From an uncultured virus (IMG/VR IMGVR_UViG_3300022602_000034) (taxonomy: Duplodnaviria > Heunggongvirae > Uroviricota > Caudoviricetes): 32,918 bases of DNA. The stretch lies in the IMG/VR virus record IMGVR_UViG_3300022602_000034. One strand, written 5' to 3'. Both the position numbers and the translations under genes were made by a program. The notes under the pieces were generated by a model that was not told the origin of the DNA, ran no database searches, and saw only the letters and a list, made by a program, of their open reading frames with translations. Below are positions 13,286 to 26,371 of this stretch, piece after piece; position 1 is the first letter of the stretch, and the number at the start of each line of letters is the position of its first letter.

Positions 13286-14605
13286 ATGTCATTTAGACCA
13301 TTACTTAGTTCATATAAATTTATACCTGAAGCTCTTACTAGCATACCTCTAGCGATACAAAGTGGTGTGTATATTACTCCGGTTGAAGTGACAAAAGCAT
13401 ATAATATACCATCAAGCACTGGGTTTGGAGTTACTATTGGTGTTATTAGTTTAGGCGGCGGATTTTTGCAAAGTGATTTAGATAAATCAATGAGTGATTT
13501 AGGATTGCAATCTCCTTCAATAAATTTTATTTCTATTAGCAGTGCAACTAATAACTTTAACGCTGACTCTAGTAATTTACAAAATCCCGTATCATTCAGT
13601 ATTGAGAATACTCTTGATATTTTCTGCATCGCAAGTATGGTGCCGGATGCTACAATTAACATTTATATCGCTTCTCCTAATTTTTCGGTCAGAGATCAGA
13701 TTGTTTCAGATTTTAATGCCGCTGTACAACAAGCAACCAATGACGGATGTGATATCATTGCCATCAGTTGGGGTACTGATGAATTGGGTGACAATGCACA
13801 ACCCGGCGGTGATGTATTTGACACTGTATTCGCAACTGCCGAAGCATCGGGTATTACTATATTTGTTGCTAGCGGTGATTACGGGTCGTTCAATCCTGTG
13901 GTCGACAATTCTGTGAATAAAAATCTAGCGATTGCCCCTTTATATCCTGCAAGTAGTTCAAGAGTAGTTGCAGTCGGCGGAACTTATCTAACTGTTAATA
14001 GTGATGGTAGTAGAAACACTGAGTATGCTGCTCAAAATTCAGGTGGTGGTATAAGCAGAATAATTCCCGTACCACAATGGCAGAACAATCTAATATATAA
14101 TACCTACCCAGTCACTACTCCAACAACATTAATTCAGTATCAAGTAAATCAAACTACTAGAATTGGCAGAGGAGTTCCTGATCTATCTGCACCATTTTTT
14201 AACTATGTTTTTTATTTTAATGGTTCTTTGATTACTGCTTCAGGTACAAGTGCTAGTTGTCCAGTGATTGCTGGTATGTTTGCTAGATTTATTGCAATGA
14301 ATCATAAACAAAGACCATCATACGGTGCTAGCACCTTTATGTCTAAATTGTATGCTAACATGTCAACTGCATTTTATAATAAAACATTAGATAAAGCAGT
14401 TACCTTGTCTGGACAACCAACTAACAACAACGCTGCAAAGAGTCCTTATGGTGGTTATTTAGCAACAGCAAACAGTTGGAACCCAGTTACTGGATTAGGT
14501 GTGCCAAATGGTAGAATTGTGTATAGGCTTACCGGAATATCAGGGCAAACATTTCCCTACAAAAAATCATCACGCCCAACCTCAGGTATTGCATACCCAA
14601 GATAA
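13286..14605 (+). CDS. S53 (sedolisin/kumamolisin-like) serine-carboxyl peptidase, catalytic domain only
   Basis: ENTLD (Glu/Asp), ISWG, ASGDYG (oxyanion Asp), YPASS, AVGGT, GRGVPD, GTSASCP (Ser nucleophile), WNPVTGLG. Confidence 0.92.
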   Translation: MSFRPLLSSYKFIPEALTSIPLAIQSGVYITPVEVTKAYNIPSSTGFGVTIGVISLGGGFLQSDLDKSMSDLGLQSPSINFISISSATNNFNADSSNLQNPVSFSIENTLDIFCIASMVPDATINIYIASPNFSVRDQIVSDFNAAVQQATNDGCDIIAISWGTDELGDNAQPGGDVFDTVFATAEASGITIFVASGDYGSFNPVVDNSVNKNLAIAPLYPASSSRVVAVGGTYLTVNSDGSRNTEYAAQNSGGGISRIIPVPQWQNNLIYNTYPVTTPTTLIQYQVNQTTRIGRGVPDLSAPFFNYVFYFNGSLITASGTSASCPVIAGMFARFIAMNHKQRPSYGASTFMSKLYANMSTAFYNKTLDKAVTLSGQPTNNNAAKSPYGGYLATANSWNPVTGLGVPNGRIVYRLTGISGQTFPYKKSSRPTSGIAYPR

Positions 14606-14674
14606 ATATATTGTACGATTCACATAGGGTGAATTTTATGCGGAAGTTCAACCGCGTAGTGGGTTAGAACCCAC
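14601..14674 (+). promoter_or_regulatory. Late promoter GATAAATA plus three-hairpin 5' leader
   Basis: Box at 14601-14608; hairpins at 14618-14634, 14637-14658 and 14659-14674; AAGGAG SD at 14681. Confidence 0.7.
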
Positions 14675-14694
14675 ATTTTCAAGGAGAAAACAAA

Positions 14695-15882
14695 ATGGGA
14701 CGTCCTTTAGCAAAAAGATATTTTGGTAACGTTAATACTAACGATACAGGGTACAATCAAGATACGTATCAACGCAATGGTGGCGCTGGTATCGGTGGTC
14801 AAGGTGTGGCAAGTGTAACAATCGGTACTGCCGGCACTTACACATCAGGTTTACCTACAGCAACATTTTCAACACCAGACTTACCAGGTGGCGTACAAGC
14901 TACTGGTGTAGTTCACGGTAACGTGGTGTCAGCAGCTACTACAAGTAACGGTTCAGGATACAACTTTGGTGATGTATTGACTGTAGTAGGTGGAACTTCT
15001 ACTACAGCAGCTACATTTACAGTTGCTTCAACATTGGTAGTATCAGCAGTTAAAAGTGCTGGCGGTACAGGTTATGCTGACGGTGACTTGTTAACATTCA
15101 GTACAGGTTTCTCACCATCATTAATCTTGCGTGTCAATCGTCCAGGTGGCGGTACAGGTTCACCGGACAATTTTACAATTACTCAAGCTGGTCGCCGTAC
15201 TAGTGCTAACCCAACTAACCCTGTGACTTATGATAGTCATACAGGTTCAGGATCAGGATGTACAGTTACTTTAGGTTTTGGCGTTTATAGTTTCAGTACA
15301 GTGGTAGTTCAAGGTGATTATACTGCAATGCCAAGTAACCCAGCTAGCTTCACAGGTGGTAGTGGTACAGGCGCAGCAGCAACAGTCACATTTGGTGTAA
15401 GTGGAATCGTAGTTACTGATCCAGGTTCTGGTTATACATCAGCAAGTGATGCAGGTATCACATTCAGTGGTGGTTCAGCCGCAGCTACATCAGTAATGAC
15501 TACTGATGACGGTAAACCTTATGATCCAGAAGCATTCCCGGCAATTATTGCTTATGGTCAAACAACTTCAGGTGGCTCTAACAAAATTGGTGATATCGTT
15601 CGTCAACGTGGTTCACATCGTTATTACTTCACAACAGCAGATGGTACAGCAGTTTGCGCTTTGAAAACATCTGGTGCAGCAAGTGCGGCAGGTGAGATGA
15701 CTATCAATGCTACTGATACTAATGGTGGCACATATTATATCTCTAAATTAACAGCACATAAAGCAGTTGTAGTTCCTAATACAGGTTCATTATTTGCTGC
15801 TAATACAGCAGTTCACTGGACTTTCAGTTCAAGTGATTCTACATATGATCCAACAACATCAGTTGTTATTGACAACGCTTAA
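14695..15882 (+). CDS. Thr/Gly/Ser-rich virion structural protein
   Basis: Repeated GSGY/GTGY...GD.LT motifs; strong SD; own late promoter and terminator. Confidence 0.7.
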   Translation: MGRPLAKRYFGNVNTNDTGYNQDTYQRNGGAGIGGQGVASVTIGTAGTYTSGLPTATFSTPDLPGGVQATGVVHGNVVSAATTSNGSGYNFGDVLTVVGGTSTTAATFTVASTLVVSAVKSAGGTGYADGDLLTFSTGFSPSLILRVNRPGGGTGSPDNFTITQAGRRTSANPTNPVTYDSHTGSGSGCTVTLGFGVYSFSTVVVQGDYTAMPSNPASFTGGSGTGAAATVTFGVSGIVVTDPGSGYTSASDAGITFSGGSAAATSVMTTDDGKPYDPEAFPAIIAYGQTTSGGSNKIGDIVRQRGSHRYYFTTADGTAVCALKTSGAASAAGEMTINATDTNGGTYYISKLTAHKAVVVPNTGSLFAANTAVHWTFSSSDSTYDPTTSVVIDNA

Positions 15883-21776: not shown

Positions 21777-21988
21777 TTGATCCTAGATCACAGGAAGAAA
21801 AATTAGCAAGAATGGATGAGTTGATGAAGCCAATTGAGCAACAACTTATGATGTGTGATGACTATAAAGACCAGTTAATGATGGCTAGTTCTATGATGGT
21901 CACTGCTTGCGACTTATTTACTCAACATATGGGTACAGAAAGTGCGAAGGAAATGTTTACAATTTTTATGGAGAGAAATTTCAAATGA
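21773..21988 (+). CDS. Hypothetical protein
   Basis: GGAG SD; ATGA coupling. Confidence 0.7.
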   Translation: MIDPRSQEEKLARMDELMKPIEQQLMMCDDYKDQLMMASSMMVTACDLFTQHMGTESAKEMFTIFMERNFK

Positions 21989-22422
21989 CAAATCAAGTTG
22001 ATTTAACAAAATATCAGGGGTTCGTTGAGGCAGTTACTAGTCAGGCTAGTAATGACTTAACAACATTTATGAATCGCTTAGATTACCTAGATGGTAACTA
22101 TGTTGAAAACGAGGGACATGGACCTGATATCAATGTCCCGTTGCTTATCACTGCATGTATGGGTCTTGCCGCAGAAAGTGGCGAGTTCATTGAAGTGCCC
22201 AAGAAAATCATTTTTCAGGGTAAGCCGCTTGATGACGCAGCAGTATTTCACATGAAGCGTGAGTTGGGTGATGTAATGTGGTACTGGATCAATGCATGTC
22301 GTGCATTGAATCTTGACCCTAACGAAGTTATTGCAGAGAATGTTAAGAAACTAGAAAGTCGCTATCCAGGTGGCACTTTTGATGTTCACTATTCTGAAAA
22401 TCGTCAACAGGGTGATTTGTAA
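21985..22422 (+). CDS. mazG: MazG-like nucleotide pyrophosphohydrolase
   Basis: GLAAESGEFIEVPKK...KRELGDVMWY...NVKKLESRYP; GGAG SD before ATG 21985. Confidence 0.92.
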   Translation: MTNQVDLTKYQGFVEAVTSQASNDLTTFMNRLDYLDGNYVENEGHGPDINVPLLITACMGLAAESGEFIEVPKKIIFQGKPLDDAAVFHMKRELGDVMWYWINACRALNLDPNEVIAENVKKLESRYPGGTFDVHYSENRQQGDL

Positions 22423-23009
22423 TGGCAAAAATTGATAAAAGTGTCAAAATAAAAAATCTAAAAACAGGATTAAAGTCATCCATAGTACCCTCACAAGCAA
22501 AAGGGAATGAGGGGAACGTGGGTAAATGGTATGAGATCCAGCTTAAGGAGAATGGGTTTCCTATGAATTCAAAACATGGTATAGATATACCTGATTTGGG
22601 ATTAGAAGTTAAAACCAGAAAACTAGGTAGCAAAGCCCATCATACTACAGGTAACATGACGTACAATAATATTGTCAATACGCCTTATAAAGAATCTACT
22701 ATTTTTCAAAAACTACAACAGCAAAATCGTATGGAATACGATAATGATTTAAACACAATTGTAGAAGAAACAGTTTATGATTTTAGAGACCCGGAGATTC
22801 AAAAGAAGATTGAAGAATCTTACGAAAACGGCAGAAGGCTTCTACGTGAAGCCGGCGGTGTCGTTGAGGGTACTGTTGTAGGCGGTGAGTATGGAGTCTT
22901 TGAATACAAAGAAGGCAATAGTTACGCACACCGAATTCCCGATTCAGGGATGAGAAAACTTAAAGGCATGTCAAAATCTGTAGTTAATGACATCTTTAAA
23001 TTTGAATAA
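22422..23009 (+). CDS. PD-(D/E)XK restriction-endonuclease-like protein (MutH/Sau3AI-like signature)
   Basis: GNVGKWYE...GIDIPDLGLEVKT. Confidence 0.65.
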   Translation: MAKIDKSVKIKNLKTGLKSSIVPSQAKGNEGNVGKWYEIQLKENGFPMNSKHGIDIPDLGLEVKTRKLGSKAHHTTGNMTYNNIVNTPYKESTIFQKLQQQNRMEYDNDLNTIVEETVYDFRDPEIQKKIEESYENGRRLLREAGGVVEGTVVGGEYGVFEYKEGNSYAHRIPDSGMRKLKGMSKSVVNDIFKFE

Positions 23010-23029
23010 ACACAATTAAATTTATTAGT

Positions 23030-23400
23030 CTATAGGTGTCCCAGTACCTTGAAATATGGCTATAACCCGTCCTAACCACAGTGACGGTAGAGTGATGACG
23101 ACTAACATCTAATTTATAGGACTACCCATTTGGATGCCTAAACGCCTTGCCGCTGCAAGTAACGTTTCCTATATCTTAACGGTTGAAAGTTTGCCGAGTC
23201 ATGGTAATTGCGATAGAGGGCTCGGGCTGGATAACACTTCCCGATGAATCATGTGTTATCATAACAGCGAATGCAGCAAATTCCCTTTATGGGTTAGTGA
23301 GACATAGACAATCCTCCACTGTAATATTTGAATTCATCGTCGCCTAAGTTCCTCAAGAATGTTTTGGTGTGGTAGGTTTATATCTACTCGCCATTGCCTA
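23030..23400. ncRNA. Candidate large structured non-coding RNA
   Basis: The only long ORF-free gap in the window; visibly richer in G+C than other spacers; several complementary segments, including a possible pseudoknot. Confidence 0.5.
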
Positions 23401-23446
23401 AGAATATATAAAACAACTCCGAATCAAATGAACCCATAGAATTTCC

Positions 23447-23454
23447 GATAAATA
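23447..23454 (+). promoter_or_regulatory. Late promoter GATAAATA
   Basis: Recurring motif upstream of the neck gene. Confidence 0.6.
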
Positions 23455-23472
23455 ATGTATCCGGAGAGTATA

Positions 23473-24225
23473 ATGAACCTACAAGAATTAAAAGATCAAT
23501 TATTTCAAAACCTAAGATATCGTATGGGTGAAGGTATAGTTGATATTGAAGCAGACCCAGAACATTTTGAAGCAGCATATCAATATGCCATTAAGATTTA
23601 CCGTCAAAGAGCACAAAATGCTACTATGGAATCATACACATTAATGAGCCTACAGGAGCATGTTGATACATATACCCTACCACAAGAATTTATCAATGTC
23701 CGTCAAGTTTTCCGTAGAACAATTGGTTTAGAAACTGGACCTAGTTCTAGTAGCTTTGATCCATTCTCCAGTGCTATCTTAAACACATACCTATTGAATT
23801 ATAACTACAGTGGTGGTTTAGCTACATACGATTTCTATGCAGGATATATTGAATTAGCTGCACGTATGTTCGGTGGCTATATGATTTATACCTTTAACCC
23901 TGTCACTAAACAGATTCGTTTAGTTAGAGATACAAAGGGTTCAGGTGAACAGATTCTTGTGTGGGCTGATATACAACGCCCTGAAGCTGAACTATTACAA
24001 GATCCGGGTGCAGGTGTTTGGTTGGGTGACTTTACATTATCAACTATCAAAATGATTATCGGTGAAGCACGTGAAAAATTTGGTTCTATTGCTGGCCCAA
24101 GTGGAGGAACCACATTGAATGGCACCGCACTAAAAGCTGAAGGTCTAGCACAACAAAATCAACTATTAGAAGATTTGAAACGCTATGTTGACTATTCACA
24201 ACCACTAACATGGGTCATTGGATAA
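23473..24225 (+). CDS. gp13: Neck / head-tail adaptor protein (T4 gp13-like)
   Basis: LRYRMGEGIVDIE...GEAREKFGSIAGPSGGTTLNG; GGAG SD before ATG 23473. Confidence 0.8.
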   Translation: MNLQELKDQLFQNLRYRMGEGIVDIEADPEHFEAAYQYAIKIYRQRAQNATMESYTLMSLQEHVDTYTLPQEFINVRQVFRRTIGLETGPSSSSFDPFSSAILNTYLLNYNYSGGLATYDFYAGYIELAARMFGGYMIYTFNPVTKQIRLVRDTKGSGEQILVWADIQRPEAELLQDPGAGVWLGDFTLSTIKMIIGEAREKFGSIAGPSGGTTLNGTALKAEGLAQQNQLLEDLKRYVDYSQPLTWVIG

Positions 24226-24226
24226 T

Positions 24227-25414
24227 ATGAGAGCAAGTGAGTTCATTGTTGAGTATAAGCAATATCCTTTGGAAGAGTTTGAGGGTATCAATATGAAACT
24301 TAAAGTAGACAACCATGAGTTGATTCTGCAGGCTCTTGACGACTGGGGTAACAAAGTACTAGGTCATGTTAGAATGAACATAGGTGATGGTAGTGAATTA
24401 GACCCGCAGGATTTGCAAGTTGACGAACGCTATCGAGGTCAAGGTATAGCAAGAGTGATGTATGATTATCTTAAATCTAAAGGATATGAAATACATCGTA
24501 GCCCAGACCAAACTGATGACGGTAAACATTTTTGGGACAAGAACCGCGGTGAAGAAGGTAATGTTTGGGAAGATGTCTTCGGTTCAAAAGCGCCAAAGCA
24601 ATTTGAACCTCTGAAAGAGTTTGAGGAAAATAATCTAAAACTAGAACCCGAACCGTATGAAGGTTGGACTGGCGAAGGTATTATTGTTCGTGCGTATTTG
24701 AGTGATAAAGAAGTAGGGCATGTAATCTTTGAACCTACAGAAGATGATGAAACACAATGGTATGCAGTTGATGTTGAAGTAGATGACAACTATCAGCGTA
24801 AAGGTATTGCTACATCTATGTATAACTTGGCTAAGAATATTGCTAAAAAGCGTGGTATAATTATTGTTCGTAGTCATGCACAAAGTCAAGCCGGTCAAGG
24901 TCTTTGGCAAGATAAAAAAGTTTGGGAAGATGTACCTAAACCTGGACCAAGTTCAGGAGCGCCAAAGCAATTTGGACCTGACGCAAAGATAGAAACTCGC
25001 CAAATGACTGTAAAGCAATTAATCTCGTCAGTACCAGGCTTGCCCTACTACAACAATGTAGTTGATGATTGGGATGCTAAGGACTACAGTTGGGGAGTTA
25101 CTAAGAAGGTAATAGAATACGCAACTTATCTAAAAGAACATCCAGAGAGTTTGTCAAAGTTGCCACCCATAATAGTATTGAACGGCAAGTTTGAAGATGG
25201 CGCACATAGAGTGTCTGCTATATGGTTGCTACAACAAAGAATGGATCCTAAAAATCCACTGTGGTCAAATGCCAAACTAAATGTTCAATTCGTTACTCAA
25301 AATATCAACGAATCATTTCTAATATTGGTGAGAAAAATGGTTTCTTTGGTAAGAAACACACAGATGAACAACGACAAAGAAAAAGAACCGAAAAACTTTT
25401 ATTTCCTAAAATAA
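24227..25414 (+). CDS. Modular protein: two GNAT acetyltransferase domains plus a ParB/Srx-like domain
   Basis: VDERYRGQGIA and VDDNYQRKGIA (GNAT motif A); PPIIV...DGAHR; N-terminus MRASEFIVE. The last ~32 aa are probably read-through into a remnant. Confidence 0.8.
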   Translation: MRASEFIVEYKQYPLEEFEGINMKLKVDNHELILQALDDWGNKVLGHVRMNIGDGSELDPQDLQVDERYRGQGIARVMYDYLKSKGYEIHRSPDQTDDGKHFWDKNRGEEGNVWEDVFGSKAPKQFEPLKEFEENNLKLEPEPYEGWTGEGIIVRAYLSDKEVGHVIFEPTEDDETQWYAVDVEVDDNYQRKGIATSMYNLAKNIAKKRGIIIVRSHAQSQAGQGLWQDKKVWEDVPKPGPSSGAPKQFGPDAKIETRQMTVKQLISSVPGLPYYNNVVDDWDAKDYSWGVTKKVIEYATYLKEHPESLSKLPPIIVLNGKFEDGAHRVSAIWLLQQRMDPKNPLWSNAKLNVQFVTQNINESFLILVRKMVSLVRNTQMNNDKEKEPKNFYFLK

Positions 25415-25503
25415 AATGTTATCATTGTAGCAAAGAAATTGACAGCATGAACTATGCTAGATGGCATGGGGATAAATGTAAAAATAAAAAGGAAAATATA
25501 TGA
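25312..25503 (+). pseudogene. NUMOD3 / Zn-finger C-terminal remnant of a homing endonuclease
   Basis: GEKNGFFGKKHTDEQR...KIKCYHCSKE...RWHGDKCK; no catalytic domain upstream. Confidence 0.7.
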
Positions 25504-25758
25504 TTGTCGGTGTGTGTGGTTTCATCGGTAGNNNNNNNNNNNNNNNNNNNNNNNNNNNNNNNNNNNNNNNNNNNNNNNNNNNNNNNNNNNNNNNNNNNNN
25601 NNNNNNNNNNNNNNNNNNNNNNNNNNNNNNNCCTAAAATAAAATGTTATCATTGTAGCAAAGAAATTGACAGCATGAACTATGCTAGATGGCATGGGGAT
25701 AAATGTAAAAATAAAAAGGAAAATATATGATTGTCGGTGTGTGTGGTTTCATCGGTAG
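25405..25758. other. Scaffold gap (100 N) flanked by an exact 127-bp duplication
   Basis: 25405-25531 is identical to 25632-25758; Ns at 25532-25631. Confidence 0.9.
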
Positions 25759-26371
25759 TGGTAAAGATACGATTGCAGACTATCTTTGCACACATCATAA
25801 GTTTAAGCGCATTAGTTTTGCAGCCAGTCTTAAAGATGCAGTAGCATCAATCTTTGGTTGGGACAGAGAATTACTAGAGGGAACGACAAAAAGCAGTCGT
25901 CAATGGCGTGAACAAGTAGATCCTTGGTGGAGTGAACGATTAGGTAAAGATATCACGCCCCGTTGGATACTACAATATTGGGGCACAGAAGTCTGTCGTC
26001 AGGGCTTTCACGATGATATCTGGGTAGCAAGCGTGGAGAATAAACTACGCCAAGCAAAGGACGATATTGTCATCACCGACTGTCGTTTTGCTAACGAGAT
26101 TAAAGCCATCAAAGATGCAGGTGGCATTACAGTACGAGTATCTAGGGGAGACGACCCTGAATGGTACAGTTCAGCGGTGGAATATAACAAGGGACCTAAC
26201 GGTAACCCCATGTGGGCGTTGAGCAAAGCTAAACTAGACAAACTAAAAGTACATGCCAGTGAGTATTCTAGTGTTGGATTGAAGTATGATTATTATTTGG
26301 ACAACAACGGAACAATTGATGAACTACACAATCATATTAGTCAACTGTTAGATCACCACGACGCCACGTAA
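25727..26371 (+). CDS. gp1: Deoxynucleoside monophosphate kinase (T4 gp1-like)
   Basis: P-loop GFIGSGKDT, FAASLK, PRWILQYWGTE, ITDCRFANE, HASE. Confidence 0.92.
   Translation: MIVGVCGFIGSGKDTIADYLCTHHKFKRISFAASLKDAVASIFGWDRELLEGTTKSSRQWREQVDPWWSERLGKDITPRWILQYWGTEVCRQGFHDDIWVASVENKLRQAKDDIVITDCRFANEIKAIKDAGGITVRVSRGDDPEWYSSAVEYNKGPNGNPMWALSKAKLDKLKVHASEYSSVGLKYDYYLDNNGTIDELHNHISQLLDHHDAT

What the first reader, a model, noticed from the sequence alone, without database searches (positions are those of the whole stretch)
23010..23446. Candidate ~370-nt structured ncRNA with long-range pairing and a pseudoknot
Seen: a 437-bp gap without a credible ORF in otherwise packed DNA. Complementary pairs include TAGGTG 23033-38 with TGCCTA 23395-400, ATGGC 23056-60 with GCCAT 23390-94, AAATAT 23052-57 with ATATTT 23324-29, ACAGTG 23078-83 with CACTGT 23317-22, and GTGACGGT 23081-88 with ATCGTCGC 23336-43. 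There are hairpins at 23146-59 and 23365-93. Interleaved stems TCGGG/CCCGA (23222-26, 23240-44) and GATAACAC/GTGTTATC (23230-37, 23253-60) form an H-type pseudoknot pattern. Some pairs are mutually exclusive and short ones may be chance. G-U pairs mostly favour the plus strand, but the minus strand has GGAGGATTGTCTATG, loosely like RNase P GAGGAAAGUCC. I cannot assign a known family.
Basis: partly seen in the sequence, partly recalled or inferred. Interest (0 to 1): 0.8.

Follow-up and report, generated by a model that had tools for sequence, protein, structure and literature searches.

The report
New large pseudoknotted jumbo-phage RNA
The gene-free gap holds a real, roughly 385-base, intricately folded noncoding RNA found only in uncultured freshwater giant-phage DNA, matching no described RNA family, and its job is still unknown.

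Summary
The gap is real and holds a plus-strand structured RNA at about 23022-23407. Its single-sequence folding energy is no better than shuffles (z +0.09 and +0.18), but comparative evidence is strong. Homologues occur in 66 IMG/VR loci found with one 19-mer, 27 more found with a second motif, and 34 metagenome contigs. None occur in 185,579 bacterial or archaeal species genomes or in 50,697 isolate phage records.

On a structure-blind alignment of 45 distinct sequences, my model has 81 pairs in 17 helices and four pseudoknots. It is 91.9% paired, against 35-44% for slid controls. Fifty-five pairs change on both sides, against 16-28 for the controls. Rfam 15 gives no hit and ARAGORN finds nothing.

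The RNA is an optional cassette in relatives of Rak2/121Q-like jumbo phages. It usually sits between MazG and the neck-adaptor gene, upstream of that gene's late-promoter-like box. Its 3' end carries two near-identical modules that change in step as direct repeats.

Of nine proposed pairings, three hold, one is plausible and five fail. Function, transcript ends and expression remain untested.

The parts
23022..23407 (+). Whole structured RNA element. The ends are inferred from where conservation and pairing stop, not from a mapped transcript.
   Evidence: nhmmer with the family profile aligns 23017-23418. Conservation in A3 starts at the 5' pseudoknot strand and ends after the B word.
23025..23105 (+). 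Pseudoknot PK-C: the 5' strand 23025-30 (UUAGUC) pairs with the loop of hairpin Hd at 23100-05 (GACUAA). Hd stem is 23094-97/23106-09.
   Evidence: 5 of 6 pairs changed on both sides and 87% of cells paired (helix 1). Found independently by an all-against-all column scan.
23034..23059 (+). 5' H-type pseudoknot: S1 23034-37/23046-49 interleaved with S2 23041-44/23056-59.
   Evidence: S1 is 94% paired with 3 of 4 pairs changed on both sides. S2 is 80% paired with 4 of 4 changed (helices 2 and 3).
23067..23087 (+). Hairpin Hc (CCGUC/GACGG).
   Evidence: 99% paired with 2 pairs changed on both sides. Also predicted by RNAalifold.
23115..23173 (+). Helix He 23115-21/23167-73. It encloses a variable hairpin and the P6/P6a hairpin (23141-44/23163-66 and 23146-49/23156-59).
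   Evidence: He is 100% paired with 5 of 7 pairs changed on both sides (helix 7). Also predicted by RNAalifold.
23194..23225 (+). Hairpin Hf 23194-200/23219-25. Its loop word GCGA (23210-13) pairs at long range.
   Evidence: Hf is 99.7% paired with 6 of 7 pairs changed on both sides (helix 10).
23226..23268 (+). Helices Hg 23226-29/23265-68 and Hh 23230-37/23253-60.
   Evidence: Hg is 100% paired. Hh has 8 of 8 pairs changed on both sides (helices 12 and 13).
23242..23343 (+). Pseudoknots PK-A (Hh loop 23242-48 with 23333-39) and PK-B (Hf loop 23210-13 with 23340-43).
   Evidence: PK-A is 100% paired, with U-A to C-G in 18 sequences at one pair. PK-B is 96% paired (helices 14 and 11).
23277..23330 (+). 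Three-way junction: Hi 23277-81/23326-30, Hj 23283-85/23291-93 and Hk 23295-99/23317-21. The 19-nt stretch 23299-23317 overlaps the inner end of Hk (its first and last bases pair) and fills its loop.
   Evidence: Hi is 91% paired and Hk 96%, each with 4 pairs changed on both sides. The 19-mer is exact in 66 family loci by construction of the search and differs at 1-4 positions in the 27 loci found with another motif.
23351..23361 (+). 'A word' CCUCAAGAAUG, the first copy of the duplicated 3' module.
   Evidence: It changes in step with the B word as a direct repeat.
23366..23392 (+). Terminal hairpin Hl. Its 3' strand is nearly invariant. The UCGC at 23388-91 is an alternative partner for the Hf loop.
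   Evidence: The local fold pairs 8-11 of the 11 nt of the 3' strand in 45 of 45 sequences. Hf loop against 23388-91 gives 180 of 180 cells paired, 5 of them changed on both sides.
23397..23407 (+). 'B word' CCUAAGAAUAU, the second copy of the duplicated 3' module. Conservation ends here.
23447..23475 (+). T4-type late-promoter-like box GATAAATA (23447-54), Shine-Dalgarno GGAGAG (23463-68) and the likely true start ATG 23473 of the neck-adaptor gene.
   Evidence: The box occurs 7 times in the window against 2.4 expected. The same box with an inverted repeat lies upstream of the gene in loci that lack the RNA. The resemblance to the T4 late promoter is recalled, not tested.
23473..24225 (+). 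Head-tail adaptor Ad2 (T4 gp13-like neck protein), the usual downstream neighbour.
   Evidence: phrog_211, E 6.6e-22. It is the next ORF in 58 of 64 element loci.
21907..23009 (+). Upstream neighbours: MazG-like pyrophosphatase (21907-22422) and a 195-aa ORF with no family match (22422-23009).
   Evidence: MazG is the ORF directly upstream in 27 of 74 element loci.

Best explanation
The gap encodes a member of a previously undescribed family of large (about 385 nt), plus-strand, heavily pseudoknotted noncoding RNAs. The family is carried as an optional cassette by uncultured freshwater jumbo myophages distantly related to Rak2/121Q-like phages.

Shown: the sequence family, its strand, at least 16 helices and four pseudoknots, its genomic position, and a duplicated 3' module.

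Inferred: the RNA is made as part of, or processed from, the rightward pre-late transcript that also covers MazG. It acts through its folded shape in trans, as a ribozyme-grade or scaffold RNA in the manner of other large 'ornate' phage-associated RNAs, and not as a leader of the neck gene. Its compact core presents an invariant CCUCC-containing loop. Its 3' tail can dock on the core (the GCGA loop of hairpin Hf) through either of two near-identical modules (UCGCC, linker, CCU-AAGAAU), which gives two alternative states.
For: Conservation:
- 66 of 67 IMG/VR loci found with the 19-mer, and all 56 found with a second motif (27 of them lacking the 19-mer), match the family profile.
- 34 of 41 metagenome hits match the profile.
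- Nucleotide identity to the window averages 75.1% over the RNA against 73.2% over the adjacent neck gene, in 39 loci.

Structure:
- 81 pairs are 91.9% paired, against 34.6-43.8% when the partners are slid.
- 55 pairs change on both sides, against 16-28 for the slid controls.
- 427 cells change on both sides, against 56-127.
- The covariation score is 0.343, against 0.049-0.095 (similar).
- RNAalifold, given no model, recovers 8 of the nested helices, and 28 of its 47 pairs change on both sides.
- Optional hairpins are capped by GUAA loops in 15 of 45 sequences.

Strand: 110 G.U cells against 47 A.C cells.

Acts in trans, not as a leader:
- The late-promoter-like box lies 3' of the RNA.
- Divergent subfamilies have other downstream genes.
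- One 277-kb genome carries two diverged copies 220 kb apart.

Duplicated 3' module:
- The A and B words are identical at 5.38 of 7 positions within an RNA, against 4.42 for shuffled partners (0 of 5000 shuffles reach this).
- They agree at 6-7 of 7 positions in four further subfamilies.
- The Hf loop pairs with both UCRC copies.
Against: - No transcript evidence. No RNA run was listed, so expression, ends and timing are unknown.
- No promoter or terminator of its own was found. In several loci a terminator-like hairpin abuts the 5' end.
- The single-sequence folding energy is no better than shuffles.
- The 3' domain is ambiguous. Two pairing schemes fit equally, and MAFFT aligns the Hl 5' strand poorly (45% paired).
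- No complement to the A/B words was found within 1-1.5 kb of the RNA on either side, so their partner is unknown.
- Homologues were gathered by exact motifs, which inflates the apparent invariance of those motifs.
- The sequences are related, so the shuffle control overstates significance. The slid controls are the fair comparison.
- Catalysis, oligomerisation and a trans target are pure inference.
Confidence: 0.55

Rival explanations
1. It is a cis-acting element of the neighbouring operon. One version is a 3' UTR or processing and stability structure of the MazG-side transcript. Another is a switch that controls read-through or translation into the neck-adaptor and structural genes. In that version the two alternative 3' pairings act as the expression platform, and the CCUCC loop or CCU words mask Shine-Dalgarno sequences.
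For: The element lies 30-125 nt upstream of the adaptor ORF, on the same strand, in 58 of 64 loci. It starts within about 15 nt of the upstream stop codon, leaving no room for its own promoter. Two mutually exclusive pairings of the Hf loop are possible. The loop contains CCUCC, complementary to GGAG-type ribosome sites such as 23463-68.
Against: The late-promoter-like box lies between the RNA and the adaptor gene, so late mRNA would not contain the RNA. 68 of 80 related adaptor loci work without it, with gaps of -20 to 84 nt, or 256 nt in one locus. Divergent members precede unrelated genes. About 385 nt with four pseudoknots is far more than known leaders need. Hl is not followed by a U-run in the main type. 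No extended complement to the loop exists elsewhere in the window.
Confidence: 0.2
2. It is a selfish or mobile RNA element, such as an ORF-less self-splicing intron or another ribozyme-based insertion. It would home into the MazG-adaptor junction, and the direct repeats at its 3' end would be related to its insertion or excision chemistry.
For: There is a presence/absence polymorphism at one site: 8 of 80 adaptor loci carry it. Ancestry is mosaic: in L110 the RNA is 91% identical to the window but the adaptor gene only 75%. Co-varying direct repeats flank hairpin Hl. The architecture is of ribozyme grade.
Against: There is no match to the group I or group II intron models or to any ribozyme family in Rfam 15, even at E up to 10. 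It interrupts no gene: the flanking ORFs are complete both with and without it. There is no homing-endonuclease ORF inside. The 5' helix S1 has no conserved U.G at a putative splice site. The insertion borders are not fixed, because the upstream genes differ.
Confidence: 0.1
3. It acts at the DNA level (a replication origin, packaging site or protein-binding array), or it is a decayed gene. The apparent pairings would be by-products of inverted repeats.
For: The region is ORF-free and AT-rich, and lies at a module boundary. Direct repeats 46 nt apart could be protein sites.
Against: A conserved U.G pair occurs in 31 of 45 sequences, and overall G.U outnumbers A.C 110 to 47, which DNA duplex symmetry would not give. 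Compensatory changes occur in 55 pairs, including long-range pseudoknots. No conserved reading frame exists and there are no protein-family hits.
Confidence: 0.03

Closest known systems
GOLLD, ROOL and OLE ('ornate' large bacterial and phage-associated RNAs)
   Same: It is large, intricately folded and rich in pseudoknots and conserved unpaired nucleotides. Its function is unknown. GOLLD's name marks a lake-derived origin, and phage association of these RNAs is recalled. It is known only from sequence comparison.
   Different: There is no sequence or structure match to their Rfam models. At about 385 nt it is about half the size I recall for GOLLD and ROOL. It is confined to one jumbo-phage lineage. 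Whether it forms oligomers, as the abstract of PMC12286853 reports for those RNAs (I saw only the start of that abstract), is untested.
Group I self-splicing introns of T4-like phages
   Same: It is a phage RNA of a few hundred nt with a pseudoknotted core and GNRA-capped peripheral hairpins. It is optional between related phages.
   Different: There is no hit to the Rfam intron model. It is intergenic, with intact flanking genes. No splice-site signature was seen. Word-level resemblances that I recalled from memory were not testable and are not used as evidence.
Bacterial RNase P RNA
   Same: Similar size, with long-range pseudoknots.
   Different: The GGAGGAUUGUC word lies on the minus strand, whereas the pairing evidence favours the plus strand. 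No RNase P model matches.
freshwater-2 RNA (RF02980), present elsewhere in this window
   Same: It is found in the same phage genome and the same kind of environment, next to a GATAAATA box.
   Different: freshwater-2 is an 80-nt 5'-leader element lying downstream of the box. The new RNA is five times larger and lies upstream of the box.

Membership tests
Structured noncoding RNA (generic) | Base pairs maintained by compensatory changes across homologues, above controls that keep relatedness | tested here: met
   91.9% paired against 35-44% for slid controls. 55 pairs changed on both sides against 16-28. Confirmed independently by RNAalifold.
Any of the 4227 Rfam 15 families | Covariance-model match at or near the gathering score | tested here: not met
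   The gathering scan of the window gives only freshwater-2, elsewhere. At E up to 10 on the gap, and E up to 5 on 15 homologous loci, only scattered chance hits below threshold appear.
Group I intron | Match to the intron covariance model | tested here: not met
   No hit at E up to 10.
Group I intron | Interrupts a gene whose exons join into an intact product | tested here: not met
   The flanking ORFs are complete. Loci without the element have the same ORFs 5-84 nt apart.
Group I intron | P3-P7 pseudoknot with a guanosine-binding site, and a U.G pair at the 5' splice site | tested here: inconclusive
   Pseudoknots exist, but their topology (two hairpin loops pairing with one strand) is not the P3/P7 arrangement as I recall it. 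No conserved U.G was seen in S1. No 3D test was possible.
RNase P RNA | Match to RNase P models, with the conserved P4 region on the transcribed strand | tested here: not met
   No Rfam hit. The motif lies on the minus strand, and the G.U excess favours the plus strand.
tmRNA / tRNA | tRNA-like domain and tag reading frame | tested here: not met
   ARAGORN finds 0 genes in the window.
Large ornate RNAs (GOLLD/ROOL/OLE) | Homology to those families | tested here: not met
   No Rfam hit.
Large ornate RNAs (GOLLD/ROOL/OLE) | Homo-oligomeric RNA-only assembly | not testable with these tools
   This needs size-exclusion chromatography, cryo-EM or native gels.
Cis-regulatory 5' leader (riboswitch-like) | Lies between the promoter and the start codon of the regulated gene | tested here: not met
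   For the late-promoter-like box, the box (23447-54) is 3' of the RNA. An upstream promoter cannot be excluded.

The most novel reading that the evidence does not exclude
This is a new class of ribozyme-grade phage RNA. Its core alternately docks two co-evolving copies of a 3' module (UCGCC, linker, CCU-AAGAAU). That would make it a built-in two-state device, used either for a self-processing or strand-exchange reaction at equivalent sites, or for assembly into a higher-order RNA particle during jumbo-phage infection.
Probability: 0.2. Interest if true: 0.92.

Novelty: new variant of a known kind. Interest (0 to 1): 0.8.

Why it matters
Very few RNA classes this large and this intricately folded are known. 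As I recall, most of those that have been understood turned out to be ribozymes, guide RNAs or self-assembling particles.

This family comes with a ready-made data set. There are about 90 viral contigs, and the sequence variation is enough to define four pseudoknots. It also has an unusual feature: two direct-repeat modules that evolve in step. That feature points to a specific experiment, namely finding which module docks and when.

The finding also shows that jumbo phages from lakes carry optional RNA genes in the variable region ahead of their structural genes. And it shows that a folding-energy z-score would have missed this RNA entirely.

Tried and rejected
- Rfam: gathering scan on the window, E up to 10 on the gap, and E up to 5 on 15 homologous loci. 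Nothing relevant.
- ARAGORN: none.
- MFE z-scores: about 0 on both strands. This test is uninformative here.
- blastn against isolate phages, with the whole gap and with the most conserved 60 nt: only chance hits.
- 19-mer scan of species genomes: 3 hits, all chance.
- Sequencing runs: no RNA holder was listed.
- The search of earlier findings: nothing.
- Literature searches found no description of this RNA.
- In PMC10690425 (a catalogue of more than 10,000 candidate viral RNAs) I read passages. I also searched 6 supplementary files for neck, gp13, head completion and adaptor, with no hit. Files 1, 2 and 4 were not searched, so the motif may sit there unnamed.
One search used a mis-nested string of mine and is void.
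- A cis complement to the A/B words within each locus: none consistent.
- An extended complement to the invariant loop in the window: none.
- J-region AUCUUAA as partner of the A/B words: examined by eye and rejected, because changes in the words are not mirrored there.
- A GGUAG/CUACC helix, and an 11-nt tetraloop-receptor reading of CCUAAG: considered by eye. They are untestable (the columns are invariant) or do not fit.
- Group I resemblances recalled from memory: not used.
- Escherichia phage 121Q: no gap upstream of its adaptor gene.
- No covariance model was built, and no calibrated E-values or R-scape test were obtained.

Full report
**What is at the coordinates.** The window carries a rightward gene row:
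- a MazG-like pyrophosphatase (21907-22422);
- a 195-aa ORF with no family match (22422-23009);
- a gap;
- a head-tail adaptor Ad2 / T4 gp13-like neck gene (phrog_211, E 6.6e-22).

The gap contains only small ORFs with no family match. Just before the adaptor gene lie a GATAAATA box (23447-54), GGAGAG (23463-68) and ATG 23473. The box occurs 7 times in the window against 2.4 expected. It also precedes the adaptor gene in related loci. I read it as a T4-type late promoter; that label is recalled, not tested. On this reading the gene most likely starts at 23473, not 23455.

**Single-sequence tests say nothing.** Rfam finds only freshwater-2, at 14618-14697. Nothing real appears in the gap even at E up to 10. 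ARAGORN finds nothing. The minimum free energy of the 445-nt gap equals that of dinucleotide shuffles on both strands, with z +0.09 and +0.18.

**Homologues.** The gap DNA recurs at 80-100% identity in 9 of the 86 loci first fetched through the flanking proteins. Its 19-nt stretch GAGACAUAGACAAUCCUCC occurs in 67 IMG/VR stretches, and 66 of these are homologues. A second motif, from the Hf loop, finds 56 loci. All 56 match the family, and 27 of them lack the exact 19-mer. The metagenome collection gives 41 hits, of which 34 match the family profile.

The 185,579-species genome collection gives 3 hits, all chance. The 50,697 isolate phage records give none. Over 39 loci, the RNA is on average 75.1% identical to the window. 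The neighbouring adaptor gene is 73.2% identical at the nucleotide level. The gap is therefore as constrained as a structural gene.

**Structure.** I read the helices from the alignment by eye. I then tested them on MAFFT alignments that know nothing of the model (A2, A3; 45 distinct sequences). The final model has 81 pairs in 17 helices.

| Measure | Model | Partners slid 1-3 columns |
|---|---|---|
| Cells paired | 91.9% | 34.6-43.8% |
| Pairs changed on both sides | 55 | 16-28 |
| Cells changed on both sides | 427 | 56-127 |
| Covariation score | 0.343 | 0.049-0.095 |

The shuffle control is never reached for four of the five measures. It ignores relatedness, though, so the slid controls carry the weight. 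RNAalifold, given no model, returns Hc, He, P6, Hf, Hg, Hh, Hj and Hk, and 28 of its 47 pairs change on both sides.

There are four pseudoknots:
- the 5' end with the Hd loop (PK-C);
- S1 interleaved with S2;
- the Hh loop with 23333-39 (PK-A);
- the Hf loop with 23340-43 (PK-B).

An all-against-all column scan recovers the main helices and PK-C with no prior input. Optional hairpins capped by GUAA occur in 15 of 45 sequences, and the terminal hairpin Hl can form in 45 of 45. G.U cells outnumber A.C cells 110 to 47, and one U.G pair is kept in 31 of 45 sequences. The RNA is therefore the plus strand.

Three of the nine are right: GATAACAC/GTGTTATC and the two hairpins. TAGGTG/TGCCTA is 91% paired with some covariation, but it competes with the local helix S1. 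S1 alone explains the compensatory changes in L098 and L104. The other five fail.

**Context.**
- In 58 of the 64 element loci that have a downstream ORF, that ORF is the adaptor gene (68-100% identical). It starts 10-192 nt after the approximate element bound used, except in L102 (377 nt), and lies on the same strand.
- Among 80 adaptor loci, only 8 carry the RNA. Another 68 have at least 500 nt of upstream sequence and lack it. Four are too short to judge.
- Where measured, loci without the RNA have a gap of -20 to 84 nt, or 256 nt in one case. Carriers have 412-501 nt.
- MazG is the ORF directly upstream in 27 of 74 loci. Elsewhere other small genes intervene.
- Divergent subfamilies precede unrelated genes.
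- One 277-kb record holds two diverged copies.
- The nearest isolates for the adaptor protein are Rak2/121Q-like jumbo phages, at 38% identity. Carrier contigs reach 359-364 kb. Phage 121Q has no such gap.

The RNA is thus an optional cassette in the variable region ahead of the structural genes of an uncultured jumbo-phage lineage.

**An unexplained feature.** The 3' end holds two near-identical modules:
- ...UCGCC, linker, CCUC-AAGAAUG (23340-61);
- ...CUCGCC, linker, CCU-AAGAAUAU (23387-407).

These flank hairpin Hl. Across subfamilies the two words change together as direct repeats. Both become AGGAAUG, AGUAAUG, AGAAGAU or AAAAGAU, or both begin AAGCAG. Within A3 they are identical at 5.38 of 7 positions, against 4.42 for shuffled partners, and 0 of 5000 shuffles reach that value.

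The Hf loop GYGA can pair with either UCRC copy. Copy 2 is paired in 180 of 180 cells, with five changed on both sides. Copy 1 is 96% paired. No complement to the words was found within 1-1.5 kb of the RNA on either side. I infer that the two modules dock alternately on the same core site. Nothing shows this directly.

**What it most likely is and does.**
- Shown: a new RNA family with ribozyme-grade architecture.
- Inferred (about 0.55): it works in trans through its fold. It lies upstream of the late-promoter-like box, keeps its structure where the neighbours differ, and can occur twice in one genome.
- Rivals: a cis element of the MazG/adaptor operon (0.2), a mobile intron-like element (0.1), and a DNA-level site or dead gene (0.03).
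- Expression is wholly untested, because no RNA run was listed.

**Novelty.** The RNA is absent from Rfam 15 and from the papers my four searches returned. It may be present, unnamed, in the catalogue of PMC10690425. Three of that paper's supplementary files could not be searched.

Noticed in passing
window 14601-14698: The Rfam freshwater-2 RNA (68.2 bits, gathering score 49.9) sits exactly between a GATAAATA late-promoter-like box (14601-08) and an AGGAG ribosome site with ATG 14696. Here it is therefore a leader of a late gene.
   Followed up: partly
window 25405-25759: A run of 100 N (25533-25632) is flanked by the same stretch of about 125 bp on both sides (25405-25532 and 25633-25759). 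It looks like a scaffolding join of overlapping contig ends, and it creates duplicated ORF fragments.
   Followed up: no
window 23455-23475: The ORF list starts the adaptor gene at ATG 23455, which abuts the GATAAATA box. ATG 23473, behind GGAGAG, is the likelier start, and most homologues align only from residue 5-9.
   Followed up: partly
window 22422-23009: A 195-aa ORF with no Pfam or PHROG match. Relatives of 35-99% identity occur in 6 IMG/VR loci. It is a second optional cassette between MazG and the adaptor gene, and in L002 it is present without the RNA.
   Followed up: partly
L163 1295-1661 (second copy in the 277-kb record behind L141): A diverged paralogue of the RNA (family profile E 1.4e-27) lies in a 770-nt ORF-free gap, 220 kb from the first copy. 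It has compensatory changes in PK-A (CCACAAUGU/ACAUUGUGG) and an altered 19-mer.
   Followed up: partly
L110/L122 versus window: Mosaic ancestry. The RNA is 91% identical to the window, but the adjacent adaptor gene is only 75% identical at the nucleotide level. This suggests the cassette moves by recombination.
   Followed up: no
L008-L086, 40 nt upstream of the adaptor gene: In loci without the RNA, the late-promoter-like box is embedded in an inverted repeat (such as CUCCAGAUAAAUACAAUAUCUGGAG) that overlaps the ribosome site.
   Followed up: no
window 21907-22422 versus 23473-24225: The 3' end of the MazG gene is 73-82% identical at the DNA level to marine cyanomyophage MazG over about 100 nt. 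The adaptor protein's nearest isolates are Asteriusvirus-like jumbo phages at 38%. The gene origins are mosaic.
   Followed up: no
5' flank of the RNA in L096, L102, L119, L138, L168 and others: A GC-rich hairpin followed by a U-run (terminator-like) abuts the 5' pseudoknot strand of the RNA in many loci. This makes it unclear how the RNA is transcribed there.
   Followed up: no
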